DNA of 64,000 bases from Vulcanimicrobiota bacterium (GTDB taxonomy: Bacteria > Vulcanimicrobiota > Vulcanimicrobiia > Vulcanimicrobiales > Vulcanimicrobiaceae), in contig OY969579.1 of the NCBI GenBank assembly GCA_963701255.1, positions 2,669,702 to 2,733,701 of the forward strand, written 5' to 3'. The first letter of the stretch is position 1; each line of letters begins with the position of its first letter. Positions 16,217 through 64,000 of this stretch are shown in pieces. The notes below the pieces were generated by a model. It saw only the letters and a program-made list of their open reading frames with translations. It did not search any database and was not told the origin of the DNA. A program made the translations under genes and the position numbers.

Positions 16217-16244
16217 CCCCGAACCGCACCAGGCCGTTTCGACC

Positions 16245-16273: not shown

Positions 16274-16288
16274 CTGCGGGGGATCGGG

Positions 16289-26785: not shown

Positions 26786-26825
26786 CCGGGCAAGGACCGG
26801 GGAACTGCCACGGAGGGCGCCCGAC

Positions 26826-28509: not shown

Positions 28510-28530
28510 TCGCGGTAAGCAACCAAGGAA

Positions 28531-28563
28531 GAAGGCCCGCTTCGGCGGGCCTTCTTTCTTTTT
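28531..28563 (+). terminator. rho-independent terminator after flagellin
   Basis: 10-bp stem GAAGGCCCGC / GCGGGCCTTC with a TTCG tetraloop and a TTTCTTTTT tail, 22 nt after the fliC stop. Confidence 0.9.
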
Positions 28564-28586: not shown

Positions 28587-30719
28587 ATGCCCATTCGCGT
28601 CATCTCGCGGCGTCGCGCCGCACCGCAAGCCGTTCCTTCGCGCCAACCGCAGCCCAGCGCTCCCTTGCCGTTCAACTTGCCGGCCCCGCCCGCCGGCGCG
28701 CCTCAACTCCGGCCCGGCGTAAGTCTGTGCATGATCGTGAAGAACGAAGAGCGCTTTCTGCGCGCGTGTCTGGAGAGCGTGCGCGACGCGGTCGACGAGA
28801 TCTGCATCGTCGACACGGGCTCGACCGACGGCACGCGTGCAATCGCGGAGGCCTTCGGCGCGCGGATCGTCGAGCGCCCCTGGCGCAGTGATTTCGCCTG
28901 GGCGCGAAACGAGGCGCTCTCGCTCGCGACGCGGCGCTGGATACTCGTGCTCGACGCCGACGAGACCCTGCGTCCCGAGTCGGTCACGGCGCTGCGAACG
29001 CTCGCGTCGACCCCGGCTGCGAGCGCCGGACTCTGGGTGCGCTGCTTCAACCACGTCGACGATTACAAAGGCACGGGCGCGAGTTCTCACGCGATCGCGC
29101 GCGTGTTCCCGAACGACCCGCGGATTCGGTACCGCAGCCCGATCCACGAGTTCATCACGATCGACGGACTCGATACCGGAATCGAGGCCCGGCACGCCCC
29201 GCTGGCCATCGATCACTACGGCTATCTGAGCGCCATCGTCAAAGAGCGCGGCAAAGCGGAACGAAATGTCGCGATCATCAACGCGGCGATCGAGAGCGAA
29301 CCGGGCAATCCGTTTCACTGGTACAACCTGGGCACGACCGCGCTGATCGAGAAGCGGGGTGAGACGGGCATCATGGCGCTCGAGAAAATGTACGAGCTAG
29401 TCGGCGAAGAGGCGCGCGGCTACGTGCCGAGTGCGCTCTCGTTCCTGGCCGATGCGTACATCGAAAGCCGGGGCGACAGCGAGGGCGCGCTGCGTTATCT
29501 CGAAGAGAGCCTGAAGCGCTCGCCGCGGTTTGCCAACGCGCACTTCGTCAAAGGCAAGGCACTTGCCCACGCGGGCCGGTATGAAGAAGCCATCGCCGCC
29601 TATGAGGAGTCGATCGCCGACGCGCCGTTCAATCGCGCGCAGTTCCTGGTCGATGACGAAATCAGTATTTGGAAGGCGCACTCGGAGATCGGTTCGGCCT
29701 ACGGCCGGATGGGCGACAAGGCGCGCGCGCTCGAATGGTTCGAAAAAGCGCTCGCGAACCGGCCGGGCGTCGCACCGGTGATGTCAAACCGTGCCCGCGC
29801 GCTCGAATCGCTCGGGCGCTTCGACGAAGCCGTTGCGCAATTCCGAACGAACTGGGAAACGTTCGGCGACGACTCCAGCTCGACCGAGTACGTGAATATT
29901 CTCCTGCGCGGCAATCGCTATGACGACGCTCTGGCCGTGGTCGACGAGGCGGTAGAGCGCGTTTCACCGCGCCACGCGGCGCTCTTGCTGATGACCGCTG
30001 CAGCGATCGCGGATCGCGCCGGTCAACCGGCGCGCGCGAACGCCTACGCGCTGACGGCGCTCGAGCGGGCACCGGGTGCGGCACCCGTGCTGGACGCGGC
30101 CGAGACCTATTTCCGGTCGCGTGGCGACGACGCCGCCATCGCCGCGCTCCGCGCTGCGGAACTGAACGCGCCGCTGGAGCTGCTCGAGGACTTCGCCCGG
30201 CGCTCGTCGCGCCACCTCAACGACGGCCGGTACGCCGAGGCCCTGGCGATCGCGGCCGCCGGCCGCAGCCGCTTCGGAGACGACTCGCGCCTGCTCTATG
30301 ACGCGGCGGCGGCGACCGTCGCCATGGGCGACCGAGCCCAAGCGTTGGCGCTCCTCGAACTGGTGGACGCGAGCGACTCCGGGGTGCTCGGGCGCGCCCG
30401 GTTCCTGCGGGCGGTCATCTGCGGCGATCTCGGGCGATACGATGAAGCCCTGACCGCCATCGATCTCGTGCTGGACGGGAATCCGCACCAAGTCGATGCC
30501 GTGTTAGCAAAAGGTAAATTTTTGCTCGCAGCCGGTCGCAATGCCGCGGCCGAGGCGGCCCTCCGCTCGGCGTTCGAGGTGACGCGCGATGGCCGGATTG
30601 CGGTCGATTTGGCCTCGTTGCTGCTCTCGGCCGGCCGGCTGGCCGAGGCCCAGACGGTCGCCGAAGCGGCGCTGGCTCCGGGCGCGGAGGCTCAAGTCGG
30701 GGTTCCGTTAGGCCGATAA
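28587..30719 (+). CDS. GT2 glycosyltransferase fused to C-terminal TPR repeats
   Basis: The GT-A core is LCMIVKNEERFL..CLESV...VDEICIVDTGSTDGT...WILVLDADE, followed by about 450 aa of TPR-like repeats. The first 45 aa are Pro-rich, so the start is uncertain (Met49 = 28731 is possible). Confidence 0.85.
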   Translation: MPIRVISRRRAAPQAVPSRQPQPSAPLPFNLPAPPAGAPQLRPGVSLCMIVKNEERFLRACLESVRDAVDEICIVDTGSTDGTRAIAEAFGARIVERPWRSDFAWARNEALSLATRRWILVLDADETLRPESVTALRTLASTPAASAGLWVRCFNHVDDYKGTGASSHAIARVFPNDPRIRYRSPIHEFITIDGLDTGIEARHAPLAIDHYGYLSAIVKERGKAERNVAIINAAIESEPGNPFHWYNLGTTALIEKRGETGIMALEKMYELVGEEARGYVPSALSFLADAYIESRGDSEGALRYLEESLKRSPRFANAHFVKGKALAHAGRYEEAIAAYEESIADAPFNRAQFLVDDEISIWKAHSEIGSAYGRMGDKARALEWFEKALANRPGVAPVMSNRARALESLGRFDEAVAQFRTNWETFGDDSSSTEYVNILLRGNRYDDALAVVDEAVERVSPRHAALLLMTAAAIADRAGQPARANAYALTALERAPGAAPVLDAAETYFRSRGDDAAIAALRAAELNAPLELLEDFARRSSRHLNDGRYAEALAIAAAGRSRFGDDSRLLYDAAAATVAMGDRAQALALLELVDASDSGVLGRARFLRAVICGDLGRYDEALTAIDLVLDGNPHQVDAVLAKGKFLLAAGRNAAAEAALRSAFEVTRDGRIAVDLASLLLSAGRLAEAQTVAEAALAPGAEAQVGVPLGR

Positions 30720-30748
30720 ATTGTAAAGCAAGGGAGGCGCAAACAAAC

Positions 30749-31132
30749 ATGGACGTGGCACTTTCGCAGACCGCTCCGAGCGGTTCAACGACGGATCCGG
30801 GCTCAGCCCAATATACGGCACCGGCGAGCACCCTCGCAGCGTCGTCGGCGAGTCCGGCTGCGCAGCCGGCGAGCACGCCGTCGAGCGACGCCAAAGGCCA
30901 ACTGCCGGCGGGACCGCTGCAGCCGTTTACCGGCGCCGTGTTGACCGTATTCGCCGGTCAGAATGTCGAAGTTTGTTTCCGGGTTGCCCACGATCCGAAC
31001 GAGATCGTGATCGTCTACCGCAACGCACAGACCGGCGAAATCATCAACCAGGTGCCGTCCGAATCGATTCTGCGCCTTGCCGAGTTCTTCCAGAGCCAAG
31101 CCATCGGCGCGCTCTTGGACAAAGGAGCATAA
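30749..31132 (+). CDS. flaG: FlaG family flagellar protein
   Basis: 127 aa. The C-terminal VCFRVAHDPNEIVIVYRNAQTGEIINQVPSESILRLAEF matches the FlaG pattern, and it lies upstream of fliD. Confidence 0.8.
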   Translation: MDVALSQTAPSGSTTDPGSAQYTAPASTLAASSASPAAQPASTPSSDAKGQLPAGPLQPFTGAVLTVFAGQNVEVCFRVAHDPNEIVIVYRNAQTGEIINQVPSESILRLAEFFQSQAIGALLDKGA

Positions 31133-31133
31133 C

Positions 31134-33212
31134 TTGTCCGGTTTGAGTTCGGCCACCACTTCCACGGGTGCCAGTTCCGCCTCGAGTACCGCCCTCCCAG
31201 GCAACAATACCGCGCCGATCTCGTTCCCGGGCATCGCCTCGGGGATCGACTACAACTCGATCATCCAGAAGTTGACGAGTCTGACGCTCTTGCCCGCCCA
31301 ACAGGCGCAGACGCAGATCACCTCGCTCAATGCAAAAAACTCGGAAATGATCAAGGTCAGCAGCTATCTGAGCAGCGTGCAAAACACGCTCTCAGCGCTC
31401 TCCGATCCGGCGACCTTCGAGGCATTTGCCGCCACGTCGAGCAACTCGTCGGTGTTGACCGGTACGACCGATACGAACTCGGCCGGTGCTGCCGGCACGT
31501 ACATCATCGACGGGACGCAACTTGCGACGGCGACCGCCGTGACGGGTGCCGTGAGTTCGGCGGTCGGACACAGCCTTGCCGACGTCGTTCCCGGTACGGG
31601 CGGCAAGACCGGCGACCAAGTCCCGCTGGTCGCTTCGTTTACGGCGATCGGGCCGACCAACGGGAGCGGCACGACACAAGGGACGATCACGGTCGACGGC
31701 GTGCAAGTCGCCTACAACGTCAGCTCGCAATCGCTCCAGACGATCCTCTCGAATATCACCGCGGCCGTCGCCTCCGTCGACCCGGGATTCAGCGCATCGT
31801 TCAATGCTGCAACCGACGTGGTCACGTTCGCCAGTATCGACGCGCCGATCTCGGTCGGCTCGCAATCCGACACCGGCAATTTGGCGCAAGTCCTCAAACT
31901 CGACGTTGCCCAAGTCACTAATACGCCGGTGAGCGGAACGGTGACCAGTGCCGGCCCCATCGGCGGCCTCAGCCTATCGGCTGATTTCTCCAGTACGAAC
32001 GGCGCGAACCTCATAACGCCGGTCAGCGGCGGCTCCGGTTCGTTCTTCACGATCAACGGCGTGAAGATCACGATCGATCCGACCTCGCAGAACCTTCAAG
32101 ACGTGATCAAGGCGATCAACCAGTCCAGCGCCGGCGTCGTCGCGAGCTACAATGGGATTACCAATCAAGTCACGTTGACGAACACCGCGACCGGCCCGCA
32201 GTCGATCGTGATCGGCTCTGCGAGCGACACGAGCAACTTCCTCAAGGCCGTGGGTTTGGAGGGCGCTGGAGCGACCACCACGATCGGCCAACAGGCGTAC
32301 GTGAAGGTTCAACAGCCCAACGGAACGGATCAAACATACTATTCGAGTTCGGATAATATCGCGAATGCCGTCCCCGGTATCACGCTCACCATCTCCGGTA
32401 ATTCGCCGACCGGAACGCAGACGACGCTCACCGTGTCGCAAGATCCGCAACCCGCGCTCAATGCCATCAATGCTTTCGTATCGGCCTACAACGCGGCGAT
32501 CAACGAGATCAACACCGCGTCGGCTCCGCCGGTCGTGCAGCAGACGAGTGTCAATACGACTTCATCGGCGGTGACCGCTACCAGTTCCAAGCTCGCCAGT
32601 GGCGGTCCGCTCTACAACGACCTCGTCGTCGAAGAGATGAAGAACCAACTGATCAGCTTGGTCTCCAACATCGTTCCGACGGGAAGCTCGTCGTACAACT
32701 CGCTCTCCTCGATCGGCCTGTCGCTCGATTCGACCCACAGCGTTCTGGCCGCGTCGGGGTCGACGAACAGCGCGACGTCATCGAGCGATTCGAGCGACAC
32801 CTCGAGCAGCGGTCCGATCGCGCTGCAGACCCAAGACGGAACATCCGGTTCGCTCCAAGCGCTCGACGTAGCCAAGTTTACCGCGGCGTTCGCCGCGAAT
32901 CCGACTGCCGTGTCTTCGCTCTTCAATTCCGCCGGCGGCCTCGTGTATCAGCTCGGCTCGTACCTGACGAGCACGACCGGACTGCCGACGCAATCGACGA
33001 CCGGACTGATCGGGTCGATACCACCAATCTCGCTGATTCAGACCGACGAGAACCAGGTCTCGACCCAGATCACGTCGCTTCAAGACTACATCACGACGAT
33101 CGACAACGAAGCAAACATGCAAGCCGATCTCTTACGCGCACAGTATACGGCAAGCGAGACGCTGATCGCCGGATACCAGTCGCTCCAAACCTATGTCTCG
33201 CAGTTGAGCTAA
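31134..33212 (+). CDS. fliD: flagellar filament cap protein FliD (long, 692 aa)
   Basis: TTG 31134 (residue 20 of track ORF 31077), 6 nt after AAAGGAG. Segments GIASGIDYNSIIQKL and C-terminal YTASETLIAGYQSLQTYVSQL are present, with long S/T-rich inserts. Confidence 0.9.
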   Translation: MSGLSSATTSTGASSASSTALPGNNTAPISFPGIASGIDYNSIIQKLTSLTLLPAQQAQTQITSLNAKNSEMIKVSSYLSSVQNTLSALSDPATFEAFAATSSNSSVLTGTTDTNSAGAAGTYIIDGTQLATATAVTGAVSSAVGHSLADVVPGTGGKTGDQVPLVASFTAIGPTNGSGTTQGTITVDGVQVAYNVSSQSLQTILSNITAAVASVDPGFSASFNAATDVVTFASIDAPISVGSQSDTGNLAQVLKLDVAQVTNTPVSGTVTSAGPIGGLSLSADFSSTNGANLITPVSGGSGSFFTINGVKITIDPTSQNLQDVIKAINQSSAGVVASYNGITNQVTLTNTATGPQSIVIGSASDTSNFLKAVGLEGAGATTTIGQQAYVKVQQPNGTDQTYYSSSDNIANAVPGITLTISGNSPTGTQTTLTVSQDPQPALNAINAFVSAYNAAINEINTASAPPVVQQTSVNTTSSAVTATSSKLASGGPLYNDLVVEEMKNQLISLVSNIVPTGSSSYNSLSSIGLSLDSTHSVLAASGSTNSATSSSDSSDTSSSGPIALQTQDGTSGSLQALDVAKFTAAFAANPTAVSSLFNSAGGLVYQLGSYLTSTTGLPTQSTTGLIGSIPPISLIQTDENQVSTQITSLQDYITTIDNEANMQADLLRAQYTASETLIAGYQSLQTYVSQLS

Positions 33213-33236
33213 AGCCCGAAACGTCTAGGGGAATCT

Positions 33237-33677
33237 GTGTCCACTTCGGCTGACTTCAAATATCTCGAAACCAAGATCATGACGGCGTCGAAGGAAGAGC
33301 TTACCCTCATCACCTTTGACTTCTTGATCCTCTCCGCGACCAAGGCGCTCGACAAGCTGCACAACGCGCCGCGCGATATCCAGGGGATCCACGATGAATT
33401 GCGGCGCGCGCAGCGCGCGATCGCGGTCCTCATGGGATCGCTGAACTTCGAGATCGGAGGAGAGCTCGCGCTCAACCTCTTCCGCGTCTACGAGTTCTGG
33501 CATCGCCAACTGGTGCTCGCGAATCTGCAAAAGGATTCCGAGCGCGTCGAACGGCTGCTCCCGTTCTTCAAAGAGTACCGCTATACATGGGCCGAAGCGC
33601 AGCGCTGCTTCCGGGCCGAACAGGTAAGCTCGGGGCAATCCGCCACGGCGAGCGGTTCGTTCGTCGCCGTCGGCTGA
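33237..33677 (+). CDS. fliS: flagellin-specific chaperone FliS
   Basis: GTG start. Segments TASKEELTLITFDFLI, I..L...LNFE.GGELA.NLF.VYEF are FliS four-helix signatures. Confidence 0.88.
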   Translation: MSTSADFKYLETKIMTASKEELTLITFDFLILSATKALDKLHNAPRDIQGIHDELRRAQRAIAVLMGSLNFEIGGELALNLFRVYEFWHRQLVLANLQKDSERVERLLPFFKEYRYTWAEAQRCFRAEQVSSGQSATASGSFVAVG

Positions 33678-33678
33678 G

Positions 33679-34050
33679 ATGGATCCCGCGCGCGAGATCG
33701 TCTTGCTCGTCAACGAACTGGAGCGGCTGCTGGTCGCGGCGGAGGACATCCTGGTCGAACGCGACTGGCCGGCCCTCGAACGCTCGGTGGCCGATCAACG
33801 GCGCGTGATGCACGCGCTCGAGAAGGCGATCTCGGCCACCGATGGTTCGCGGCCGGACGCATTCGACAACGAGTTGCGCATGCGGATCACCCGCAGCGAC
33901 CAGCGGCGTGCCGACCAGCTACGCCGGCTCGAGGCCTTCCGCGACGCGCTCGCCTCACGCCTGGGTGTGATGGCGCGGGCCAAAGCGATGCGCCGTGCCG
34001 CTCGGCCGATCGGCGGACCGGTCCCCGCGCTCATCAACTCGCTGCGCTAG
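33679..34050 (+). CDS. FliT/FlgN-like helical protein (hypothetical flagellar chaperone)
   Basis: 123-aa all-helical, charged ORF 1 nt after fliS. The assignment is positional only. Confidence 0.45.
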   Translation: MDPAREIVLLVNELERLLVAAEDILVERDWPALERSVADQRRVMHALEKAISATDGSRPDAFDNELRMRITRSDQRRADQLRRLEAFRDALASRLGVMARAKAMRRAARPIGGPVPALINSLR

Positions 34051-34060
34051 CGATCGCGCT

Positions 34061-34831
34061 TTAGTCGACGATCACGTAATCGAGCACGGCTCGCTCGTGG
34101 CGCTCGTGCGCGCGCGGTCCGTTTTCGTCGAACGGCACGAGCGCGTAGCGCGGACCGGGCTGCGCGACCAACATCCGTTCGTGGGCGGTCTCGGCGGGCG
34201 ATTCCCAGCGCACGGGCTCGACGACGCCGCGGTCGCGGTCGAAGTGCCCGCACCGTACCCCCGCGTGCAGCGCGACGCCGAATCCGGCCCGCCGGATGCG
34301 CTCGCAGAAGAGATAGTCTTCGTTACAGACGCGAACGCGAGCGGCACCCTCTTCGATATAGATTTGGGTCGCGAAGTAGGGGCGAGCGAGCGCCCGCAGA
34401 ACTGAGGTCCGCAGCAGAACGCAGCCAAACCCGACGGCATCGACCGGAACGATGCGATCGGTGAAGCCGGGGACGCTTCCCCCCGTCGTGTCGGCGGAGG
34501 ACCAGCGGGACGCGGCCATCGGCCGGATCCCGTCGCGCGAGTAGTAGAGCGCGCCGACGACGGCGAGCGACGGATCGAGCACCAGGGCGTCGCAAAGCGT
34601 CGTGAGTGCGTCCGGCGCAAAGGTCATATCGTCGTCGATCATCGCCAGGAAATCTGCTTGCACCGCGAGCGCCCGGCGCACGGCGAGTTCGCGCTGGGCC
34701 GGGATGAAGTTTCCGCTGACGACGTAACGGTCGAAGTCGGTGACCTCGGGCGGAAGCGTCAGCTTCGCGAGCGCGCTCAAGAACGGCTGCGTCGGCCGGC
34801 CGCCGTTGGGGAGCGCGAGCAAGAGCTTCAA
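34061..34831 (-). CDS. GT2-like glycosyltransferase (256 aa)
   Basis: TTG start in TTGA overlap with the upstream gene. Segments FLAMIDDDMTF (DxD), GFGCVLLR and EDYLFCERIRRAGF are typical of GT-A family 2. Confidence 0.75.
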   Translation of the reverse strand: MKLLLALPNGGRPTQPFLSALAKLTLPPEVTDFDRYVVSGNFIPAQRELAVRRALAVQADFLAMIDDDMTFAPDALTTLCDALVLDPSLAVVGALYYSRDGIRPMAASRWSSADTTGGSVPGFTDRIVPVDAVGFGCVLLRTSVLRALARPYFATQIYIEEGAARVRVCNEDYLFCERIRRAGFGVALHAGVRCGHFDRDRGVVEPVRWESPAETAHERMLVAQPGPRYALVPFDENGPRAHERHERAVLDYVIVD

Positions 34832-37310: not shown

Positions 37311-37353
37311 TATCGACGGGGTTTCCCCGTAGGGCGCGAAACTCTTACGGGGC

Positions 37354-41923: not shown

Positions 41924-41965
41924 CGAACACAAAATAATCTGACCCGATCGCCCGAAGCATAGTCT

Positions 41966-46611: not shown

Positions 46612-46613
46612 TC

Positions 46614-50960: not shown

Positions 50961-51020
50961 GGGTCGGAGATACGCAGCCGCCGATACGGCCCCCCTGCAA
51001 GCAGGCGCTTCAATTAAGGT

Positions 51021-51617: not shown

Positions 51618-51618
51618 A

Positions 51619-54886: not shown

Positions 54887-54925
54887 CGCAAATCACTACG
54901 AAAGGTACCGCTAATTCCCTACAGG

Positions 54926-56508: not shown

Positions 56509-57326
56509 CCCGAGCGCTCGACGAGCGCTCGATCGCCCTGCGTGAATCGATCGTGGATGCGCTCGTCGGCGGCCGCCGCGGCCATGTCGGCGCGTCGTTT
56601 TCGCTGGTCGAGATCTTGCGCGTGCTCTACGACAACGTCATGCGTTACCGGCCGCACGAACCGCACTGGGACGACCGCGACCGTTTCATCTTGAGCAAAG
56701 GTCACGGTTGTCTGGCGCTTTACGCGCTGCTGGCCGACAAGGGCTTCTTTCCGGCCGCGGAACTTGCGCTGCAATGCACCCCCGGCGCGCTGCTGGGCGG
56801 TCATCCCGAGACACGCATCCCCGGCGTCGAAGCTTCGACCGGGGCGCTCGGCCACGGGCTCTCGATCGGCGTCGGCATCGCGCTCGCGACGCGCATGGCC
56901 AAACGCTCGAGCCGCGTGTTCGTCGTGACGGGCGACGGGGAACTCGACGAAGGCTCGGTTTGGGAAGCGGCCCTGAGCGCGGCAAAGCACAAGCTCGACG
57001 GGTTGACCCTGATCGTCGACTACAACAAACTCCAATCGTACGGGCGGGTGAGCGACGTGCTGCCGCTCGAACCGCTCGGCGAAAAGTTCGCCGCGTTCGG
57101 ATTCTCCGTCGTCGAAGTCGATGGGCACGACGTCGCGGCGTTGCGAGCCGTGCTGGGTGACCTGCCGCGCGAGAGCGGCAAACCTACGGCCGTGATCGCG
57201 CATACCGTCAAGGGCAAGGGCGTGCCGGTCGCGGAGCACAACCCGCTCTGGCACCACAAGGCGAGCTTCGATGCCGCGAGCGGTGCCGAGCTGCGTGCCG
57301 CGTTGCGCGAGATTTCACATGCGTAA
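56496..57326 (+). CDS. transketolase, N-terminal (TPP-binding) subunit
   Basis: GTG 56496. GGHVGASFS, ILSKGHG, TGALGHGLSIGVG and VVTGDGELDEGSVWEA are transketolase PP-domain motifs. 276 aa, the split form. Confidence 0.88.
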   Translation: MDVVTRALDERSIALRESIVDALVGGRRGHVGASFSLVEILRVLYDNVMRYRPHEPHWDDRDRFILSKGHGCLALYALLADKGFFPAAELALQCTPGALLGGHPETRIPGVEASTGALGHGLSIGVGIALATRMAKRSSRVFVVTGDGELDEGSVWEAALSAAKHKLDGLTLIVDYNKLQSYGRVSDVLPLEPLGEKFAAFGFSVVEVDGHDVAALRAVLGDLPRESGKPTAVIAHTVKGKGVPVAEHNPLWHHKASFDAASGAELRAALREISHA

Positions 57327-58257
57327 GGCGGCGATCAACGCGGTCTACGCGCTTGCCAAGCGCGATCCGCGCGTCGTGTTCATCGGCTCGGATCTGGGCG
57401 CCGGTGTGCTCGACGAGATGCGCACGTCCATGCCGGAACGATTCTTCATGGAAGGCGTCTCCGAGGCGCACGTGATCGGCATGGCCGCGGGTCTGGGGAT
57501 GAACGGCTACGTGCCTTACATCAACACGATCGCGACCTTCCTGACGCGCCGCTGCTACGAACAGATCGCGATCGATCTGTGCTTGCACGACATTCCGGCG
57601 CGCTTGATCGCGAGCGGAGCCGGCACGGTCTATGCGCCGCTGGGCCCGACGCACATGGCGGTCGAGGACATCGCGATTCTGCGCGCATTGCCGAACATGG
57701 CGATCGTGGCGCCGGTCGACGCCGCTGAGATGACGCGCCTGATGGATGCCTCGCTCGACTGGCCCGGCCCGCTGTATATCCGTGTCGCCAAAGGCGGCGA
57801 CCCGGTCGTCTCGCGCCCCGATCTGCCGTTTGCGATCGGCAAGGCGATCCGGCTGCGCGAACCCGGCGAGGTCCTCTTCGTCTCGACCGGGATCGCAACG
57901 ACCCGGGCCTTGGCGGCCGCCGAACGGCTCGCGCAAGCCGGCGTAACCGGCGGCGTGTTGCACATGCATACCATCAAGCCGCTCGACGTAGCGGAGTTGC
58001 TGGCCGCCGCCGGCGATGCCGAACTCGTCGTGACGGTCGAAGAACATACCCGCATCGGCGGGCTCGGCAGCGCGGTTGCCGAGACGTTCGCCGACGAAGG
58101 GATCGCGCAGCCGCTGTTGCGCCTGGGTTTGCCGGACGCGTTCTCGCACGACTACGGCAATCAAGACCACGTCCTGAACCTGGCCGGACTCTCACCGGCA
58201 GCGATCGCGGCCGGCGTGCTGGCTCGCCTCGCGCGGCGTCCCGTGGGGGTTCGCTGA
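57319..58257 (+). CDS. transketolase, C-terminal (pyrimidine-binding) subunit
   Basis: Met17 of the track ORF, 8-nt overlap. Has RFFMEGVSEAHVIGMAAGL, GPTHMAVEDIAILRALPNM and EEHT.IGGLGSAV. Confidence 0.88.
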   Translation: MRKAAINAVYALAKRDPRVVFIGSDLGAGVLDEMRTSMPERFFMEGVSEAHVIGMAAGLGMNGYVPYINTIATFLTRRCYEQIAIDLCLHDIPARLIASGAGTVYAPLGPTHMAVEDIAILRALPNMAIVAPVDAAEMTRLMDASLDWPGPLYIRVAKGGDPVVSRPDLPFAIGKAIRLREPGEVLFVSTGIATTRALAAAERLAQAGVTGGVLHMHTIKPLDVAELLAAAGDAELVVTVEEHTRIGGLGSAVAETFADEGIAQPLLRLGLPDAFSHDYGNQDHVLNLAGLSPAAIAAGVLARLARRPVGVR

Positions 58258-58258
58258 G

Positions 58259-58921
58259 ATGCGCGTCGATCTGATCGGCTCGATGCACGCCGCTACCAAG
58301 CGCGACTACGTCGCGCGCGTTGTCGATTTCGACAAGGCCGCGTGTGCCGAAGTCGCCGGGCGTTTCGCGGCCGACTACTGGGACGGCGAACGGCAATACG
58401 GCTACGGCGGCTATCGCTACGACGGGCGTTGGGCGCCCTTCGCCAAGCAACTCGTCGCGCGCTACGGGCTGCGCGCGGGGCACCGCGTGCTCAACGTCGG
58501 CTGCGGAAAAGGCTTCTTGCTCCATGAACTGCTGGCCGCCGTGCCGGGCCTCGAGGTCGCCGGAATCGACGTCTCGAGCTACGCGCTCGAGCACGCCACG
58601 GACGAGGTCCGGCCATACCTCACGCTCGGCGACGCCGCGCGGCTCCCGTATGCGGACGGAGCCTTCGACCTCGTGATCTCGCTCGCGACGCTTCACAATT
58701 TGCCCTTGCCGGAGCTGTGGGCGGCGATCGCCGAGATCGAGCGCGTCGGCAGCGGTTCGGCGAAATACCTGATGGTCGAATCCTACCGCGACGAACGCGA
58801 GAAGGCGAACCTGCTGTATTGGCAGTTGACCTGCAAGAGTTTCTACTCCGTCTCGGACTGGGAGTGGTTGTATCACCGCATCGGCTATCGCGGCGACTAC
58901 GACTTCATTTTTTTCACATGA
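58259..58921 (+). CDS. class I SAM-dependent methyltransferase
   Basis: Motif I VLNVGCGKGFLL, then a post-I acidic residue and FDLVISLATLHN. Confidence 0.8.
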   Translation: MRVDLIGSMHAATKRDYVARVVDFDKAACAEVAGRFAADYWDGERQYGYGGYRYDGRWAPFAKQLVARYGLRAGHRVLNVGCGKGFLLHELLAAVPGLEVAGIDVSSYALEHATDEVRPYLTLGDAARLPYADGAFDLVISLATLHNLPLPELWAAIAEIERVGSGSAKYLMVESYRDEREKANLLYWQLTCKSFYSVSDWEWLYHRIGYRGDYDFIFFT

Positions 58922-60456
58922 TGCAAACAGGGGCACCGGAACTCGTCAAGATACTCGAGCTCGCCGATCTCGGGGTTCGCATCGCGGCCGAACGCGCGGC
59001 GGGCAAGCGCATCGTGCACGCGCACGGCGTGTTCGACCTGCTCCATCCGGGGCATATCCGCCATCTGGCCGAGGCGAAGAGTCTGGGCGACCTCCTGGTC
59101 GTTACCTTGACCGAGGACAAGCACGTCAACAAGGGGCCGAACCGGCCGGCGTTCCCGGAGGCGCTGCGGGCCGAATCGATTGCGGCGCTGGCCTCGGTCG
59201 ACTTCGTCGCGATCAACCGCAGTGCGTCCGCGATCCCCGCGATCGATCTGCTCCAGCCGCACGTGTACGTCAAGGGATCCGAGTACAAACACGCGGCCGA
59301 CGATCTGACCGGCAAGATAACGGATGAAGAAGCGGCCGTTCGCGCGCACGGCGGTTCCATCGCCTTCACCGAAGACGTCGTATTCAGCTCGTCGGCATTG
59401 CTGAATCAGTATCTGCCGTCCTATCCGCCGGACGTGCAGCAATATCTGCGCGATATCCGGGAACGCTACACGGCCCGCGACGTGATCGATTATCTCGACC
59501 TGCTCGGCGAGATGCGCGTCATGGTCGTGGGTGAGACGATTCTCGACGAATACGTCTACTGCGACCAGATGGGGAAATCGGCCAAGGACCCCGTCCTCGC
59601 GATGCGCCACAAGTCCACCGAGATGTACGCGGGCGGCGTGCTCGCCGCGGCCAACCACCTGGCGGACTTCTGCAAGTCGGTCGAGGTCGTGACCTATCTC
59701 GGCGCCGTCGACGGCCAGGAGAAATTCGTCCGCGAACACCTCAAACCCAAAGTTCGCTTGAGTCCGATCTACAAGGCCGACAGCCCGACGATCGTCAAGC
59801 GCCGGTACGTCGAGGCGACGTTGCTCACCAAGATGTTCGAGGTCTACGTCATCAACGACGACGAACTCGACGCCGAGCACGAGGCGGACCTGTGCGCCTT
59901 GCTCGACATTCGCCTGCCCGGAACCGATGCGGTCATCGTCGCCGACTTCGGCCACGGGCTCCTGACGCCGGCCACGAAAGTGCTGCTCGCCGAGCGGGCC
60001 AAGTTTCTCGCAGTCAACACGCAGATCAACGCGGCCAATATCCGTTTCCATGCGATCTCGAGTTATCCGCGCGCCGACTACGTCTGCATCAACGAAGGCG
60101 AGTTGCGCCTGGACGCACGCAGCCGCTACGGCAAGATCGGCGATCTGGTCGCCGGTCTCTCGAAGAAGGTCGATTGCAGCCGCTTCCTCGTGACGCGCGG
60201 CAAGTCCGGGGTCAGCTACTTCGACGGTGACGCGCAGGCCGAGTCGCCGTCGCTCACCACCAACATCGTCGATCGCATCGGCTCCGGCGACGCCGTGCTC
60301 GCCATCACTTCGGCGTGCGTCGCGGCCGGAATGCCCGCCGACCTCGTCGCCTTCGTCGCCAACGTCATCGGCGCGCAGAAAGTCCAGATCATGGGGAACA
60401 AGGACTCCGTCGGCCGCGTGGCCACGCTCAAATTCATCGAGGCACTCCTGAAATGA
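58918..60456 (+). CDS. bifunctional nucleotidyltransferase (cytidylyltransferase fold) plus PfkB-family sugar kinase; HldE-like with swapped domain order
   Basis: Met68 of the track ORF, ATGA overlap. N-terminal HGVFDLLHPGHIRHL (HxGH) and a C-terminal PfkB anion hole VDRIGSGDA. Confidence 0.8.
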   Translation: MMQTGAPELVKILELADLGVRIAAERAAGKRIVHAHGVFDLLHPGHIRHLAEAKSLGDLLVVTLTEDKHVNKGPNRPAFPEALRAESIAALASVDFVAINRSASAIPAIDLLQPHVYVKGSEYKHAADDLTGKITDEEAAVRAHGGSIAFTEDVVFSSSALLNQYLPSYPPDVQQYLRDIRERYTARDVIDYLDLLGEMRVMVVGETILDEYVYCDQMGKSAKDPVLAMRHKSTEMYAGGVLAAANHLADFCKSVEVVTYLGAVDGQEKFVREHLKPKVRLSPIYKADSPTIVKRRYVEATLLTKMFEVYVINDDELDAEHEADLCALLDIRLPGTDAVIVADFGHGLLTPATKVLLAERAKFLAVNTQINAANIRFHAISSYPRADYVCINEGELRLDARSRYGKIGDLVAGLSKKVDCSRFLVTRGKSGVSYFDGDAQAESPSLTTNIVDRIGSGDAVLAITSACVAAGMPADLVAFVANVIGAQKVQIMGNKDSVGRVATLKFIEALLK

Positions 60457-61136
60457 CCACCGCCCGCACGATCGGACCGGAATTCCAAGATCATCTCGAC
60501 GGCCTGGCCGGCGCGGGACCCGTCGAACTCGGGCCCTCCGCGAGCCATCTCTGGCGCACCGATCCGCGGCGCATGCCGATCGTCCTCGCACGCTACAAGT
60601 TCGTGGCGAAGATGCTGGCCGGGAAGCAACGCGCGCTCGAAGTCGGCTGCGGCGACGGTTTTCAGATGCGCGTCGTGCTGCAAGCGGTCGAATCGGTTCA
60701 CGGCGTCGACTACGATCCGAGCTTCATCGATTGGGCCGTGAGCCACGCGGCCAAGGAGAAGCTCAACGCGACGTTCTCGGTGTGCGATGTGATCGCCACG
60801 CCGCCGCCGGGGCGCTACGACGCGGCCTACTCGCTGGACGTCATCGAACACATCCCGCTCGAACACGAAGCGGCGTTCCTGGGGAACATCGCGAGCGTCT
60901 TGCCGGCCGACGGCGTCTGCATCGTCGGCACGCCGAACATCACGGCCGGTGCCTACGCCTCCAAGTGGAGCAAGGCCGGCCACATCAACCTCAAGTCGGC
61001 GGACACGCTGCGCGCGGCGATGGCCCAGCATTTCAGCAACGTCTTTTTGTTCTCGATGAACGACGAGGTCGTGCACACCGGGTTCGCGCCGATGTCCCAC
61101 TACCTGCTCGCCATGGGAGTCGGCGTCCGCCGCTGA
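60453..61136 (+). CDS. class I SAM-dependent methyltransferase
   Basis: Met47 of the track ORF, ATGA overlap. Has ALEVGCGDGF motif I and YDAAYSLDVIEHI. Confidence 0.8.
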   Translation: MTTARTIGPEFQDHLDGLAGAGPVELGPSASHLWRTDPRRMPIVLARYKFVAKMLAGKQRALEVGCGDGFQMRVVLQAVESVHGVDYDPSFIDWAVSHAAKEKLNATFSVCDVIATPPPGRYDAAYSLDVIEHIPLEHEAAFLGNIASVLPADGVCIVGTPNITAGAYASKWSKAGHINLKSADTLRAAMAQHFSNVFLFSMNDEVVHTGFAPMSHYLLAMGVGVRR

Positions 61137-61140
61137 GATC

Positions 61141-61917
61141 GTGGACCTGGGACTACGCGGCAAGACCGCGCTCGTGACGGCCGGGAGCCGCGGCATCGGC
61201 CGCGCCTGTGCGCTTGCGCTGGCGGCCGAAGGCGTGCGGGTCGCGGTGTGCGCGCGCACGGCCGCGGATGTCGCAAACGTCCTGGAGGAACTGGGCGGTG
61301 AGGCCGCGGGTCATCGCGGTTTCGTCTGCGATCTGCTCGAGAGCGATGCACCCGTGCGGCTCGCACGTCAGGTGGTAGAGCAATTCCAAGCTCTCGATAT
61401 CGTGGTGCACAACTTGGGCGGAACCCTCTCCGTGCGCGGGATCGACGTCCCCATCGCCGATTGGCGGCGCGTCTTCCGTGCGAATTTCGAGGTTGCCGTT
61501 GAGATCAACGGCGTCGTGCTCCCCGCGATGCTCGAACGCAAGAGCGGGCGCATCATCGCAATCTCGTCGCTCGCCGGCGACGAACACCAAGGTGCGCTCC
61601 CCTACGCGGCGGCCAAGGCCGCGCTCAACGCCTACATCCGCGGGCTCGGGCGCGAGTTGGCCAAGAGCGGCGTCGTCGTTTCCGCCGTATCGCCCGGTAC
61701 CGTGCTCACCGAAAACGGCGTCTGGGATATTCGCCGGCGCACCGACCCCGAATCGGTCGAGAAGTACATCGCGGAGAAGCTCCCGGCCGGTGCGTTCCAG
61801 CGCCCCGAGCGCATCGCGGACATCGTCGCCTTTCTCGCTTCGGAGCGAGCAACCGAATTCACCGGATCCGTCCTGGCCGCCGACGGCGGCCAGGGCCGGA
61901 GCTTCGTCGCCCCATGA
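61141..61917 (+). CDS. classical SDR oxidoreductase
   Basis: GTG start. Has TAGSRGIG (TGxxxGIG), NNLG-like HNLGG, and S...YAAAK catalytic residues. Confidence 0.85.
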   Translation: MDLGLRGKTALVTAGSRGIGRACALALAAEGVRVAVCARTAADVANVLEELGGEAAGHRGFVCDLLESDAPVRLARQVVEQFQALDIVVHNLGGTLSVRGIDVPIADWRRVFRANFEVAVEINGVVLPAMLERKSGRIIAISSLAGDEHQGALPYAAAKAALNAYIRGLGRELAKSGVVVSAVSPGTVLTENGVWDIRRRTDPESVEKYIAEKLPAGAFQRPERIADIVAFLASERATEFTGSVLAADGGQGRSFVAP

Positions 61918-61963
61918 AGCCCGATCGACGTTTCACAACCGGGCAGCCCCAGAAAGCTCAGCC

Positions 61964-63007
61964 ATGACTCCCGAAGAGTTCAAAGCACAAGTCCTCCAGT
62001 TGTTCTTCCAAGACATCCACAAGCTCGAGCAGAACAACTATTCTCCGGAACGTTTCAGCTATGACGGGGTCGACCGGTCCGCGCTCTTCGACGTTACGAA
62101 GCACGCCGCGTACCTCGACTGGTTCATCCAGCAGTACCGCAACGTGTTCGACGGGTGCGTGCGACTTGCCGACCAGGAGTCACGCAACCTGTACGTCGAT
62201 GTCCTCCGTTACAAGCTCGTCGGGCATCTCCACAAGCGGATCAATACCCCGGTCGCCGCAATGGGCGAAGAGACGGCCAGGTTGCTCGAAGCTTTTCCCG
62301 GGACGGAGTCTTCGATCGAGACCAGCGGAATGTTCGGCAAACTCCGTCACTATGACGGCTATTGGAAGGACGTCCACTATACGGTCGACACGTTGAAGAA
62401 TGCGCTGACGAGCACGCTGGTCTACCGGCAATATTACTTCGAGCGCAACGGGGTGAGCATCCAGCCCGAAGCCGGCGACTTCCTCATCGAGGGCGGAGCG
62501 TGCACCGGGGATACGGCTGCCGTGTTCTCACGTTCGGTCGGACCGGGCGGTCGAGTCTACGCATTCGATCCGGTTCAGGACCACATCGACGTGTGCCGAG
62601 CGAATTTCTCCCGGCCCGGCTACGAGAACGTCGACATCCTCCCCTACGGGTTGGGGGACCGGACGATCGAATGCGCACCGATCCGGCTCGACACGTACTC
62701 ACCGGGCTTTCGCTCGGCCGCCCATGCGGTACCCTTGGCGAAAATCGATGACTTCGTCGCGAACGGCCGTATCGAGCGAATCGACTTCATCAAACTCGAT
62801 ATCGAAGGCTCGGAGATGGCCGCCCTGCGCGGTGCCGAGCAATCGATTCGGAGGTTTCGTCCGAAGCTCGCCATCTCGGTCTATCACAATCCGAACGACT
62901 ATTTCGAGATCGCTCAGTACATCGACTCGCTCGGACTGGGATACAAGCTCTACCTCGACCACTACACGATCTGGGATGAAGAGACCGTGCTCTACGCGCG
63001 CGCATGA
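61964..63007 (+). CDS. FkbM-family methyltransferase
   Basis: Met163 of track ORF 61478. GDFLIEGGACTGDT, IDFIKLDIEGSEMAAL and KLAISVYH are FkbM signatures. Confidence 0.8.
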   Translation: MTPEEFKAQVLQLFFQDIHKLEQNNYSPERFSYDGVDRSALFDVTKHAAYLDWFIQQYRNVFDGCVRLADQESRNLYVDVLRYKLVGHLHKRINTPVAAMGEETARLLEAFPGTESSIETSGMFGKLRHYDGYWKDVHYTVDTLKNALTSTLVYRQYYFERNGVSIQPEAGDFLIEGGACTGDTAAVFSRSVGPGGRVYAFDPVQDHIDVCRANFSRPGYENVDILPYGLGDRTIECAPIRLDTYSPGFRSAAHAVPLAKIDDFVANGRIERIDFIKLDIEGSEMAALRGAEQSIRRFRPKLAISVYHNPNDYFEIAQYIDSLGLGYKLYLDHYTIWDEETVLYARA

Positions 63008-64000
63008 CCATGAACTCGAAGCGTACGCTGATCGTCCTGATCCATTGCGGTCATCCCAACGACTACGAGGTGGCCAAGCCCAAGCGGCGGTCGCTCGCTG
63101 AATTCGGCTTTTCGATGGTCGATCTCTCGATCAACGATCCGGGCGTCGTGGGCAAGCTCAACGCGCTGTTGACCGAACGCCGCTCCGAGATATTTTGCTT
63201 TCTCAGCGATAACTACTACGGGGCCGGGATCCGCGCGGGCGAGCAGCTCCTGCACCGGCTGACCGGGATTCCGATCGTCTTCTTTCTGCACGATCATCCG
63301 CTCTATTTCTTAGGCCATCAGTCCCCGGCGCTCGAAGGCGGCATCGTGTTCGCACCGGGTCCAGACTTGCTCGACTTCGTCGCCAAGTATTATCCCGCCG
63401 ACACCCTCGGTGTCGTCAACAGTGCCTTTTCGCTGCCGCCGTATGCGCTGGGGGAACCGCGCTACGAGGAGTTCGTCTCCCGCAAGAACATGTTGCTGTG
63501 CCCGATGAATCTCGCGGTCGGAGGATTGACCCTCGACGGTCTCTGGCGGCAACTCAAAGAGCTGCCGTCCGTGCGGCGTGACTTTGCGCTGCGGCTGACC
63601 GAGACGGCGTTGACCGACTGCCTCACGCCCTTGCACGTCCATGCGGAGGCGCTGGCCCGGGCCGCCGGCCCGGGGCGTAACGAACTCGTGCTCTCCGACC
63701 AATTGCTGGTACTCAATTTCATCAAGGCCTGGCGCCGCAACGCGATGGTCCGGGAACTGATCGACCTGCCGATCTTGGTCAGCAGCGAATATGTACCGGC
63801 GGATCTGGAACTCAAGTATCCCCAGAAGTTCACGCTCTTTACGATGGAACAGACGACGCCGCTCTATCCCCAGTACCGATTCGTGCTCAACTCGTTTCCG
63901 CTGCTGACTTCTGCGCTGCACGAGCGCGTCATCAACGGCCTCTACGGGAATTCCGTGCTCGTCACCGACCCCAACGTGACCATGACGGAACACTTCGCCG
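63004..64000 (+). CDS. hypothetical protein, 3'-truncated by window end (not in ORF track)
   Basis: My own translation from ATG 63004 (ATGA overlap with the FkbM stop) reads MTMNSKRTLIVLIHCGHPNDYEV... with no stop up to 64000. It has G/C-rich third positions and normal composition. The listed - ORF 63310..63993 is its shadow. Confidence 0.7.
   Translation, partial: MTMNSKRTLIVLIHCGHPNDYEVAKPKRRSLAEFGFSMVDLSINDPGVVGKLNALLTERRSEIFCFLSDNYYGAGIRAGEQLLHRLTGIPIVFFLHDHPLYFLGHQSPALEGGIVFAPGPDLLDFVAKYYPADTLGVVNSAFSLPPYALGEPRYEEFVSRKNMLLCPMNLAVGGLTLDGLWRQLKELPSVRRDFALRLTETALTDCLTPLHVHAEALARAAGPGRNELVLSDQLLVLNFIKAWRRNAMVRELIDLPILVSSEYVPADLELKYPQKFTLFTMEQTTPLYPQYRFVLNSFPLLTSALHERVINGLYGNSVLVTDPNVTMTEHFA

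What the first reader, a model, noticed from the sequence alone, without database searches (positions are those of the whole stretch)
28587..64000. Flagellum-linked ~35 kb glycosylation island with no nonulosonic-acid genes and no visible export machinery
Right after the flagellin terminator comes a GT2-TPR gene co-transcribed with flaG-fliD-fliS. After the fliT-like gene the window is filled to its end with at least 11 GT-like domains and a nucleotide-sugar pathway. None of these proteins looks like an integral membrane protein to me. I see no Wzx/Wzy, no ABC or OPX/PCP exporter, and no WbaP/WecA-type priming transferase. That favours cytoplasmic protein (flagellin or axial protein) glycosylation over EPS or LPS synthesis. 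Characterised flagellin glycosylation systems that I know rely on pseudaminic/legionaminic acid genes plus Maf/FlmG, or on small rhamnose/viosamine islands. No PseB/PseC/NeuB-like genes are visible here, and the island is far larger. Flagellin, FlgK, FlgL and FliD all have S/T-rich expansions that could be acceptors.
Basis: partly seen in the sequence, partly recalled or inferred. Interest (0 to 1): 0.78.

Follow-up and report, generated by a model that had tools for sequence, protein, structure and literature searches.

The report
Flagellin glycosylation island of an Eremiobacterota bacterium
This is most likely a roughly 46 kb gene island next to the flagellin gene of an uncultured soil bacterium (Candidatus Velthaea) that decorates flagellar proteins with unusual sugars inside the cell; its core enzymes are conserved beside the flagellar genes across the phylum and include a previously unrecognised glycosyltransferase family.

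Summary
A strong terminator follows the flagellin gene. Then come a GT2-TPR gene, flaG-fliD-fliS and a fliT-like gene, then glycosyltransferases and sugar-pathway genes. The island does not stop at 64 kb. On the parent contig it runs to about 74.9 kb (about 46 kb in total) and ends at a two-component system and the rpsB-tsf-pyrH-frr-uppS-cdsA housekeeping block. I found no integral membrane protein, flippase, polymerase, ABC/OPX/PCP exporter, priming transferase, NeuB-type synthase or Maf anywhere in it.

The catalytic domain of the GT2-TPR protein is homologous to Listeria GmaR, a known flagellin O-GlcNAc transferase (E 3e-35). Two 'unknown' proteins of about 670 aa are divergent GT-B glycosyltransferases. 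That brings the count to about 13 GT domains.

In 48 related Eremiobacterota loci, the core sits beside fliD/fliS in 41-47 of them. The core is GT2-TPR, a double-GT2 protein, the new GT-B, and a triad of a small GT-A, a DUF11-like protein and an AAA_22 ATPase. The sugar-pathway genes are not shared between loci.

My reading is a cytoplasmic flagellar O-glycosylation system, a new variant of a known kind. Its glycan probably contains a methylated heptose-type sugar and an acylated amino-deoxyhexose. The acceptor and the glycan are inferred, not shown.

The parts
27229..28509 (+). Flagellin (426 aa), the presumed acceptor
   Evidence: Flagellin_N and Flagellin_C. A terminator hairpin follows at about 28525-28563.
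28587..30719 (+). GT2 + TPR protein (710 aa), GmaR-like. Candidate initiating flagellin O-glycosyltransferase.
   Evidence: Pfam GT2 (residues 46-162) plus many TPR families. PDB phmmer: GmaR 22ao_A, E 3e-35, DADE motif aligned; SunS E 1e-16. Present in 43 of 48 related loci.
30749..34050 (+). flaG, fliD, fliS and a fliT/FlgN-like gene, tightly spaced behind the GT2-TPR gene
   Evidence: Pfam. Gaps of 29, 10, 24 and 1 bp.
34061..34831 (-). Small GT-A (256 aa, MIDDDM motif), first gene of the conserved triad
   Evidence: Pfam Glyco_tranf_2_3, E 2e-6. 55-56% identical in two related loci (L005, L006). Found in at least 90 species genomes, nearly all labelled Eremiobacterota.
34828..36339 (-). 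503-aa protein: DUF11-like Ig-fold domain, proline-rich linker, C-terminal domain with no match among the Foldseek hits. Function unknown.
   Evidence: No Pfam or NCBIfam hit. About 103 cluster representatives; residues 50-150 match DUF11 repeats. AF2 pLDDT 82; Foldseek hits fall only on the beta-sandwich.
36336..37310 (-). AAA_22 (ExeA/MshM-like) ATPase, third gene of the triad
   Evidence: Pfam AAA_22, E 1e-20. TIGR03015 scores 134 bits, far below its cutoff of 324. Present in 47 of 48 related loci.
37354..39945 (+). Double GT2 protein (863 aa), copy 1
   Evidence: Two GT2 domains. Weak PDB sequence hits to chondroitin polymerase K4CP and ppGalNAc-T2. 58% identical to copy 2.
39908..41923 (+). 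Novel GT-B glycosyltransferase with an extra N-terminal domain (671 aa), copy 1
   Evidence: No Pfam, NCBIfam or PDB sequence hit. Only 37 homologues among 5.8 billion proteins. AF2 pLDDT 91.8; Foldseek matches MshA, GlgM, BshA, PglA and PimA at E down to 4e-12.
41966..44614 (+). Double GT2 protein (882 aa), copy 2
44614..46611 (+). Novel GT-B (665 aa), copy 2
   Evidence: 42% identical to copy 1
46614..48514 (+). GT2-like protein (251 aa) and GT4 protein (382 aa)
   Evidence: NCBIfam MftF-like, E 1e-12. Pfam Glyco_trans_1_4, E 2e-20.
48471..50960 (-). 829-aa protein with a C-terminal GT2 domain. The N-terminal 550 aa are unassigned.
   Evidence: No PDB sequence hit for the N-terminal part.
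51051..53630 (+). GmhA-like phosphoheptose isomerase and two SDR dehydratase/epimerase-type enzymes
   Evidence: All scores are below the equivalog cutoffs.
53599..54886 (-). 'Sporadic carbohydrate cluster' pair: an LIC12192-family protein and a 2OG-Fe(II) oxygenase
   Evidence: TIGR04323 (134 bits, cutoff 55) and TIGR04324 (281 bits, cutoff 150)
55525..63007 (+). APH-type kinase, split transketolase, HldE-like nucleotidyltransferase+kinase (domains in swapped order), two SAM methyltransferases, an SDR and an FkbM methyltransferase
63004..64000 (+). Start of a 405-aa GT1-like gene. The island continues off the window to equivalent position 74,939 with methyltransferases, a GNAT, a 317-aa unknown and an amino-acid adenylation enzyme, followed on the opposite strand by a VioB/NeuD-type acyltransferase, an SDR, an ACP, WbqC, a DesI-like aminotransferase, a 265-aa unknown and a methyltransferase.
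   Evidence: L001 and L088; 14 mismatches in 12,860 overlapping bases

Best explanation
This is a flagellar protein O-glycosylation island of a Candidatus Velthaea (Eremiobacterota) bacterium.

Proposed mechanism (inferred). Soluble enzymes in the cytoplasm make unusual nucleotide sugars. One is a heptose-type sugar built from a transketolase, GmhA-like and HldE-like branch and then methylated or oxidised. The other is a 4-amino-4,6-dideoxyhexose that is N-acylated or aminoacylated through an adenylation enzyme, an ACP and a VioB-type transferase. The GmaR-like GT2-TPR enzyme, encoded directly after flagellin, uses its TPR region to bind unfolded flagellin (possibly other axial proteins too) and attaches the first sugar to Ser/Thr. 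The conserved double-GT2 proteins, the new GT-B proteins and the strain-specific GTs then extend the glycan. The modified protein finally leaves through the flagellar type III export channel.

Shown: gene content, homologies, synteny and the absence of export genes.
Inferred: the acceptor, the order of the steps and the sugar identities.
Unassigned: the triad of small GT-A, DUF11-like protein and AAA_22 ATPase is part of the conserved core, but I cannot give it a role.
For: - GmaR homology. The GT2 domain matches GmaR at E 3e-35 over about 200 residues with the DxD region aligned, and matches SunS at E 1e-16. TPR repeats follow the GT2 domain, as in GmaR (GmaR function and architecture from PMC9638930).
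- Position. The gene lies between the flagellin terminator and flaG-fliD-fliS, with gaps of 10-29 bp.
- Synteny. Among 48 related loci with full flanks: fliS 45, fliD 44, GT2-TPR 43, double GT2 41, new GT-B 42, AAA_22 47. The commonest order is GT2TPR-dGT2-GTB-(flaG)-fliD-fliS, with flagellin just upstream where the flank reaches it, facing the divergent triad.
- Variable cargo. The sugar-pathway genes occur in only 0-8 of 83 loci. This is the usual pattern of a conserved transferase core with variable sugar genes.
- No membrane or export proteins over 46 kb up to a housekeeping boundary, nor in 1.41 Mb of related loci apart from TauE permeases in PAPS/sulfotransferase blocks.
- The 671- and 665-aa proteins are soluble GT-B enzymes.
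- Precedents. Sequential cytoplasmic O-glycosylation of flagellin, with glycans of up to 11 sugars, is established in Pseudomonas (PMC3958885). Heptose and sulfonated peptidylamido glycans are known on C. difficile flagellin (PMC4441256, PMC5207245).
Against: - There is no biochemical evidence. No member of the phylum with flagella has been cultured, and the only isolate lacks flagellin (PMC9758169).
- Peripheral GTs of ABC-dependent O-antigen pathways also lack transmembrane segments, and wecA-type initiators are often encoded elsewhere. Absence of these genes from the island is therefore suggestive, not conclusive.
- An MsbA/PglK-type ABC half-transporter lies 13.7 kb upstream of the island.
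- All heptose-pathway matches are below the curated cutoffs, and no GmhB phosphatase was found.
- In 3 of 48 loci the small GT-A gene lies away from fliS/fliD; in two of these the full triad is present.
- About 13 GT domains is many for a glycan that must pass through the flagellar export channel.
Confidence: 0.7

Rival explanations
1. The region from 34 to 75 kb is a cell-surface polysaccharide cluster (O-antigen, capsule or EPS) that merely abuts the flagellar late operon. Its initiating transferase and exporter would be encoded elsewhere. Only the GT2-TPR gene would act on flagellin.
For: - Multi-domain soluble GT2 proteins resemble polymerising GTs: K4CP is the best PDB sequence hit for the double GT2.
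- The GT4 and the AAA_22 ATPase have weak, sub-threshold similarity to PEP-CTERM/XrtA system families.
- An MsbA/PglK-like ABC exporter is present in the window.
- wecA is commonly unlinked to such clusters (my own knowledge).
Against: - In most related loci the double GT2 and the new GT-B sit inside the flagellin-flaG interval, and the triad is adjacent to fliS/fliT in 45 of 48.
- No exporter, chain-length regulator or ligase occurs in 46 kb here or in 1.41 Mb of related loci.
- The PEP-CTERM matches are far below cutoff (134 vs 324 bits; 68 vs 317 bits).
- The MsbA-like gene is separated from the island by about 12 kb of flagellar genes.
Confidence: 0.15
2. The system glycosylates mainly other targets: other flagellar axial proteins (FliD, FlgK, FlgL), or many cellular proteins in a general cytoplasmic O-glycosylation system. 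Flagellin would be only one substrate, or not a substrate.
For: - FliD, FlgK and FlgL are as rich in Ser/Thr as flagellin.
- TPR domains can recognise many clients, and OGT is among the TPR hits.
- The triad occurs away from the flagellar genes in a few loci.
Against: - The nearest characterised homologue, GmaR, is specific for flagellin (PMC9638930).
- The gene sits immediately after flagellin in the related loci whose flanks reach that far.
Confidence: 0.1
3. The GT2-TPR protein is mainly a regulator, like GmaR acting as an anti-repressor. The island GTs would be unrelated to flagella and would make a soluble or secondary-metabolite glycoconjugate.
For: - GmaR is bifunctional (PMC9638930).
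- The island contains an adenylation enzyme, an ACP, several methyltransferases and an oxygenase, which are reminiscent of natural-product tailoring.
Against: - No aglycone scaffold genes (PKS or NRPS modules) are present.
- The DxD motif of the GT2 domain is conserved.
- The GTs are syntenic with flagellar genes across the phylum.
Confidence: 0.05

Closest known systems
Listeria monocytogenes GmaR (flagellin O-GlcNAc transferase and MogR anti-repressor)
   Same: The GT2 catalytic domains are homologous (E 3e-35, DxD region aligned). TPR repeats follow the GT2 domain. The size is similar (637 vs about 700 aa). The gene lies in the flagellar locus (PMC9638930).
   Different: I did not look for MogR or examine the anti-repressor domain. 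Here the gene is accompanied by about 12 further GT domains and by sugar pathways, so an oligosaccharide is expected rather than a single GlcNAc. The host is diderm (FlgI P-ring present).
Pseudomonas flagellin glycosylation islands (P. aeruginosa a-type, 14 genes; P. syringae fgt1/fgt2 plus the viosamine island)
   Same: They contain no nonulosonic-acid genes and lie next to the flagellin/fliD/fliS genes. Sugars are added sequentially in the cytoplasm, giving glycans of up to 11 sugars. They also carry an aminotransferase, a VioB-type acyltransferase, an ACP and a reductase set for an N-acylated 4-amino-4,6-dideoxyhexose (PMC3958885, PMC3927599).
   Different: Homology between the transferases was not tested because I had no sequences to hand. 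The present island is about three times larger, adds a heptose-type branch, and has its own conserved core (new GT-B and AAA_22 triad).
Geobacillus and Campylobacter flagellin glycosylation islands
   Same: They are large insertions between the flagellin and flaG genes (13.4-30.4 kb and 11-23 genes in Geobacillus, PMC5109656), with strain-variable sugar genes.
   Different: Those islands centre on nonulosonic acids (Pse, Leg, Neu) and, in Campylobacter, on Maf transferases (my own knowledge). Neither is present here.
Clostridioides difficile type B flagellin modification
   Same: It gives a precedent for heptose, methylation, sulfonation and peptidyl/aminoacyl decoration of flagellin glycans (PMC4441256, PMC5207245). 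That parallels the GmhA/HldE-like genes, the methyltransferases and the adenylation enzyme here, and the PAPS/sulfotransferase genes in related loci.
   Different: The phyla are unrelated. Gene-level homology was not tested.
Two-GT-A-domain glycan polymerases (K4CP chondroitin polymerase type)
   Same: The 863- and 882-aa proteins have two GT2 domains in one soluble chain, and K4CP is the best PDB sequence hit.
   Different: The similarity is weak (E 2e-8, one domain only). Polymerase activity is speculation.

Membership tests
GmaR-type flagellin glycosyltransferase (GT2 + TPR) | GT2 catalytic domain homologous to GmaR, with the DxD motif | tested here: met
   phmmer against PDB: 22ao_A GmaR, E 3e-35, residues 40-238 vs 6-202; 'DADE' aligned
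GmaR-type flagellin glycosyltransferase (GT2 + TPR) | TPR domain C-terminal to the GT domain | tested here: met
   Pfam TPR families over residues 235-680 or so. GmaR architecture from PMC9638930.
GmaR-type flagellin glycosylthe transferase (GT2 + TPR) | Transfers a sugar to Ser/Thr of flagellin | not testable with these tools
   Needs mass spectrometry or an enzyme assay
GmaR-type flagellin glycosyltransferase (GT2 + TPR) | C-terminal anti-repressor domain that binds MogR | not tested
   I did not search for MogR or align the C-terminal regions
Nonulosonic-acid / Maf flagellin glycosylation systems | NeuB/PseI/LegI-type synthase and a CMP-sugar synthetase | tested here: not met
   No such Pfam family in any of the approximately 43 island proteins (precomputed Pfam). 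PseB, PseC and LegB matches are far below cutoff.
Nonulosonic-acid / Maf flagellin glycosylation systems | Maf (MAF_flag10) transferase | tested here: not met
   Absent from all Pfam results
Wzx/Wzy- or ABC-dependent surface polysaccharide gene cluster | Polytopic flippase/polymerase, or a Wzm/Wzt ABC-2 exporter, within the cluster | tested here: not met
   Hydropathy and Pfam over 28.6-74.9 kb found none. In 83 related loci only TauE permeases were found. The MsbA-like exporter at 13135-14826 lies outside the island.
Wzx/Wzy- or ABC-dependent surface polysaccharide gene cluster | Polyprenyl-phosphate priming transferase (WbaP/WecA) and OPX/PCP proteins | tested here: not met
   No such family in the island. 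The rest of the genome was not searched.
ADP/GDP-heptose pathway (GmhA, HldE/HddA-HddC, GmhB) | Isomerase, kinase, phosphatase and nucleotidyltransferase, all present and scoring as equivalogs | tested here: inconclusive
   GmhA models score 109-113 bits against cutoffs of 209-320. HldE scores 149 against 521, with the domain order swapped. No GmhB was found.
XrtA/PEP-CTERM EPS system | TIGR03015 ATPase above its cutoff, together with an exosortase | tested here: not met
   134 bits against a cutoff of 324.5. No exosortase in the island.
GT-B (GT4-like) glycosyltransferases, for the 671/665-aa family | Two-Rossmann GT-B fold | tested here: met
   AF2 pLDDT 91.8, pTM 0.92. Foldseek matches to MshA, GlgM, HepE, BshA, PglA and PimA at E 4e-12 to 1e-9. 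Sequence-based family membership is not met: no Pfam or NCBIfam hit.

The most novel reading that the evidence does not exclude
The phylum-wide core would be a distinct type of flagellin glycosylation machine. It comprises a GmaR-like initiator, a bifunctional two-GT-A enzyme, a previously unrecognised GT-B family with an extra conserved N-terminal domain, and a triad of small GT-A, DUF11-like protein and AAA_22 ATPase. In this reading it builds a repeating or polymeric glycan on flagellin in the cytoplasm, and the ATPase triad couples modification to chaperoning or to hand-over to the flagellar export gate.
Probability: 0.15. Interest if true: 0.8.

Novelty: new variant of a known kind. Interest (0 to 1): 0.52.

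Why it matters
Flagellin glycosylation is known mostly from pathogens and a few model bacteria. This would be the first description for Eremiobacterota, an abundant and almost uncultured soil and peat phylum whose flagella have never been observed.

The locus gives a defined, conserved gene set that could be tested heterologously: the GmaR-like GT, the double GT2 and the new GT-B. It assigns a fold and a likely activity to an orphan protein family with only 37 homologues among 5.8 billion proteins. It also flags a conserved ATPase-containing triad of unknown role beside fliS/fliT.

The variable cargo (heptose-type, aminoacylated and, in relatives, sulfated sugars) suggests strong diversifying pressure on the flagellar surface in these bacteria, for example from phages or predators.

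Tried and rejected
- GC3 filtering alone gave a poor gene map. I replaced it with a self-trained codon-usage caller.
- The consensus terminator scan missed the flagellin terminator. Folding the region found it.
- Sequence searches of PDB gave nothing for the 671-aa protein, the 503-aa protein and the N-terminal 550 aa of the 829-aa protein. NCBIfam gave nothing for the 503-, 671-, 665-, 405-, 265- and 383-aa proteins.
The 256-aa GT-A alignment worked instead.
I worked around this with a homology search for the WbqC protein.
- I considered a PEP-CTERM/XrtA EPS system because of the AAA_22 ATPase, and rejected it on score and on the absence of an exosortase.
- I considered that the 7-TM proteins in related loci might be Wzm-type exporters, and rejected this: they are TauE/SafE permeases in PAPS/sulfotransferase blocks.
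- Foldseek did not resolve the C-terminal domain of the 503-aa protein. I did not analyse the extra N-terminal domain of the new GT-B separately.
- A literature search for flagellar genes in Eremiobacterota/Baltobacterales found nothing.

Full report
**Gene map.** The window is about 67% G+C, so raw ORF lists are noisy. A self-trained codon-usage caller gave a consistent map, which I annotated with Pfam and NCBIfam.
- Positions 1-13 kb hold unrelated housekeeping genes.
- An MsbA-like ABC exporter is at 13135-14826 (494 bits against a cutoff of 602).
- A Ser/Thr kinase follows, then flagellar rod, ring and hook-associated genes: flgF/G, flgI, flgK, flgL, fliW, csrA, and flagellin at 27229-28509.

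**Checking the observation.** A strong hairpin with a U-tract follows the flagellin stop codon (dG -42.3 kcal/mol, z -3.7), although the consensus scan missed it. The next gene (28587-30719) encodes GT2 plus TPR repeats. It is followed at gaps of 29, 10, 24 and 1 bp by flaG, fliD, fliS and a fliT/FlgN-like gene.

Downstream, GT domains are detectable by sequence in the genes at 34061, 37354 (two domains), 41966 (two), 46614, 47366, 48471 and 63004. The gene pairs 863/882 aa and 671/665 aa form a tandemly duplicated two-gene module, 58% and 42% identical.

A Kyte-Doolittle scan finds no convincing membrane protein in the island, while the ABC exporter and a sensor kinase score as positive controls. 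No Wzx/Wzy, Wzm/Wzt, OPX/PCP, WbaP/WecA, NeuB/PseI or Maf family appears. The S/T-richness of the axial proteins (22-29%) was not compared with other flagellar proteins, and I do not count it as evidence.

**Extending the island.** An exact-protein look-up placed the window on a 397 kb ENA contig and on NCBI MAG GCA_049690615.1. L001 differs from the window at 14 of 12,860 overlapping bases. A protein from the extension is named 'Candidatus Velthaea sp.' by NCBI.

Walking further shows that the island continues with:
- a GT1-like gene, methyltransferases, a GNAT and a 317-aa unknown;
- an amino-acid adenylation enzyme (TIGR01733, 364 bits against a cutoff of 317);
- on the opposite strand, a NeuD/PglB/VioB-type acyltransferase, an SDR, an ACP, WbqC, a DesI-like aminotransferase, a 265-aa unknown and a methyltransferase.

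It ends at window-equivalent 74,939. Beyond that lie a two-component system, a pentapeptide-repeat protein and rpsB-tsf-pyrH-frr-uppS-cdsA. The island is thus about 46 kb.

**What the key proteins are.**
- *GT2-TPR.* Its GT2 domain is homologous to the solved GT domain of Listeria GmaR (E 3e-35, residues 40-238 against 6-202, DADE motif aligned) and more weakly to the peptide S-glycosyltransferase SunS. GmaR is a GT-TPR protein that O-GlcNAcylates flagellin (PMC9638930).
- *The 671-aa 'unknown'.* It has no Pfam, NCBIfam or PDB sequence match and only 37 homologues among 5.8 billion proteins, all from metagenomes or MAGs. An AlphaFold model built on that alignment is confident (pLDDT 91.8, pTM 0.92). 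It matches retaining GT-B enzymes (MshA, GlgM, HepE, BshA, PglA, PimA; E down to 4e-12). An additional N-terminal region carries most of the invariant residues.
- *The double-GT2 proteins.* They weakly resemble the two-domain chondroitin polymerase and ppGalNAc-transferases.
- *The 503-aa protein.* It has a DUF11-like Ig-fold domain, a proline-rich linker and a confident C-terminal domain that none of the Foldseek hits covered.
- *Its neighbour.* This is an AAA_22 ATPase that scores far below the PEP-CTERM ATPase cutoff.

**Comparative evidence.** Three distant homologues of the new GT-B all lie in flagellar late operons. A scan of one genome per GTDB species with the conserved 256-aa GT-A found at least 90 loci, nearly all labelled Eremiobacterota, Vulcanimicrobiota or WPS-2.

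I ran tblastn with all window proteins against 83 loci. In the 48 loci with full 10 kb flanks the counts were: fliS 45, fliD 44, GT2-TPR 43, AAA_22 47, double GT2 41 and new GT-B 42. The commonest order is GT2TPR-dGT2-GTB-(flaG)-fliD-fliS-(fliT), with flagellin just upstream where the flank reaches it, facing the divergent triad of GT-A, DUF11-like protein and AAA_22. In this window, and in L006 and L009, the dGT2+GT-B module lies beyond the triad, and here it is duplicated.

The sugar-pathway genes from 46.6 to 75 kb occur in only 0-8 of 83 loci. A scan of all 1.41 Mb for ORFs with four or more hydrophobic segments found real candidates in only one class. These are TauE/SafE permeases inside CysD-CysNC-sulfotransferase blocks, which are not polysaccharide exporters. 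In three loci the small GT-A gene lies away from fliS/fliD; two of these keep the full triad.

**Interpretation.** The best-supported reading is a cytoplasmic flagellar O-glycosylation system with a conserved transferase core and strain-variable sugar cargo. It works like the Pseudomonas and Listeria systems and lacks nonulosonic acids.

The cargo here probably has two parts. The first is a heptose-type sugar from a split transketolase, a GmhA-like isomerase and an HldE-like bifunctional enzyme with swapped domains. All of these score below the curated cutoffs and no GmhB was found. This sugar would be tailored by SDRs, a 2OG oxygenase and several methyltransferases. The second is an N-acylated or aminoacylated 4-amino-4,6-dideoxyhexose.

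Heptose, methyl, sulfonate and peptidylamido decorations have precedents on C. difficile flagellin (PMC4441256, PMC5207245). Glycans of up to 11 sugars are known on P. aeruginosa flagellin (PMC3958885). Large islands between flagellin and flaG are known in Geobacillus (13.4-30.4 kb, PMC5109656).

**Limits.** There is no direct evidence that flagellin is modified, and the only cultured member of the phylum has no flagellin (PMC9758169). Soluble GTs and an absent exporter do not strictly exclude a lipid-linked pathway completed by genes elsewhere, and I could not search the rest of the genome. The role of the AAA_22 triad and of the GT-B N-terminal domain remains unknown.

**Verdict.** This is a new variant of a known kind, of moderate interest. 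What is new is the conserved core, including an orphan GT-B family and an ATPase triad, and the fact that it comes from an unstudied phylum. The size of the island and its lack of nonulosonic-acid genes are not in themselves new.

Noticed in passing
L014:2833-7217 (also L017, L034, L045, L047, L066, L067, L070, L071, L080, near position 4-5 kb): In at least 10 related Eremiobacterota loci the variable region next to the AAA_22 triad carries CysD, CysN/APS kinase, a TauE/SafE permease and a weak sulfotransferase match. That predicts sulfated flagellar glycans in those species.
   Followed up: partly
window 34061-37310 (- strand): A divergent triad (256-aa GT-A, 503-aa DUF11-like/proline-rich protein with an unmatched C-terminal domain, AAA_22 ATPase) lies next to fliS/fliT in 45 of 48 related loci. 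Its role is unknown.
   Followed up: partly
window 37354-46611: The double-GT2 + GT-B module is tandemly duplicated (58% and 42% identity) and lies beyond the triad. In most relatives a single copy sits between the GT2-TPR gene and flaG.
   Followed up: yes
window 26297-27122: fliW and csrA lie between flgL and flagellin. This suggests FliW-CsrA partner-switch control of flagellin translation, as in Bacillus and Campylobacter (my own knowledge).
   Followed up: no
window 13135-17146: An MsbA-like ABC half-transporter (weaker match to PglK) and a Ser/Thr protein kinase sit directly upstream of the flagellar rod genes. I did not check whether this linkage is conserved.
   Followed up: partly
L001:16560-18116 and 19548-19787 (window-equivalent about 67.7-69.3 kb and 70.7-70.9 kb): An amino-acid adenylation (DltA-like) enzyme above its curated cutoff, together with a free-standing ACP, lies inside the island. 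This suggests an aminoacyl or peptidyl decoration on a sugar.
   Followed up: partly
window 53599-54886 (- strand): A pair from Haft's 'sporadic carbohydrate cluster' (TIGR04323 LIC12192 family and TIGR04324 2OG-Fe(II) oxygenase), both above cutoff, is embedded in the sugar pathway. Their chemistry is unknown.
   Followed up: no
window 28587 vs 28731; 39908 vs about 40510: Public gene calls shorten two core proteins. P0038 (662 aa) starts inside the first beta-strand of the GT2 domain as judged from the GmaR alignment. P0001 (471 aa) lacks about 200 N-terminal residues that are conserved in homologues.
   Followed up: yes
L010, L012, L082: In three related genomes the small GT-A gene is not within 10 kb of fliS/fliD. 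In L010 and L012 the full triad is present and lies near SDR sugar-pathway genes; L082 has only the GT-A. The L010 contig also carries a GT2-TPR homologue elsewhere (P0109).
   Followed up: partly
L088:4042-6620 (window-equivalent 75.1-77.6 kb): The island's downstream boundary is a sensor kinase/response regulator pair and a pentapeptide-repeat protein. After these comes the conserved rpsB-tsf-pyrH-frr-uppS-cdsA block.
   Followed up: yes
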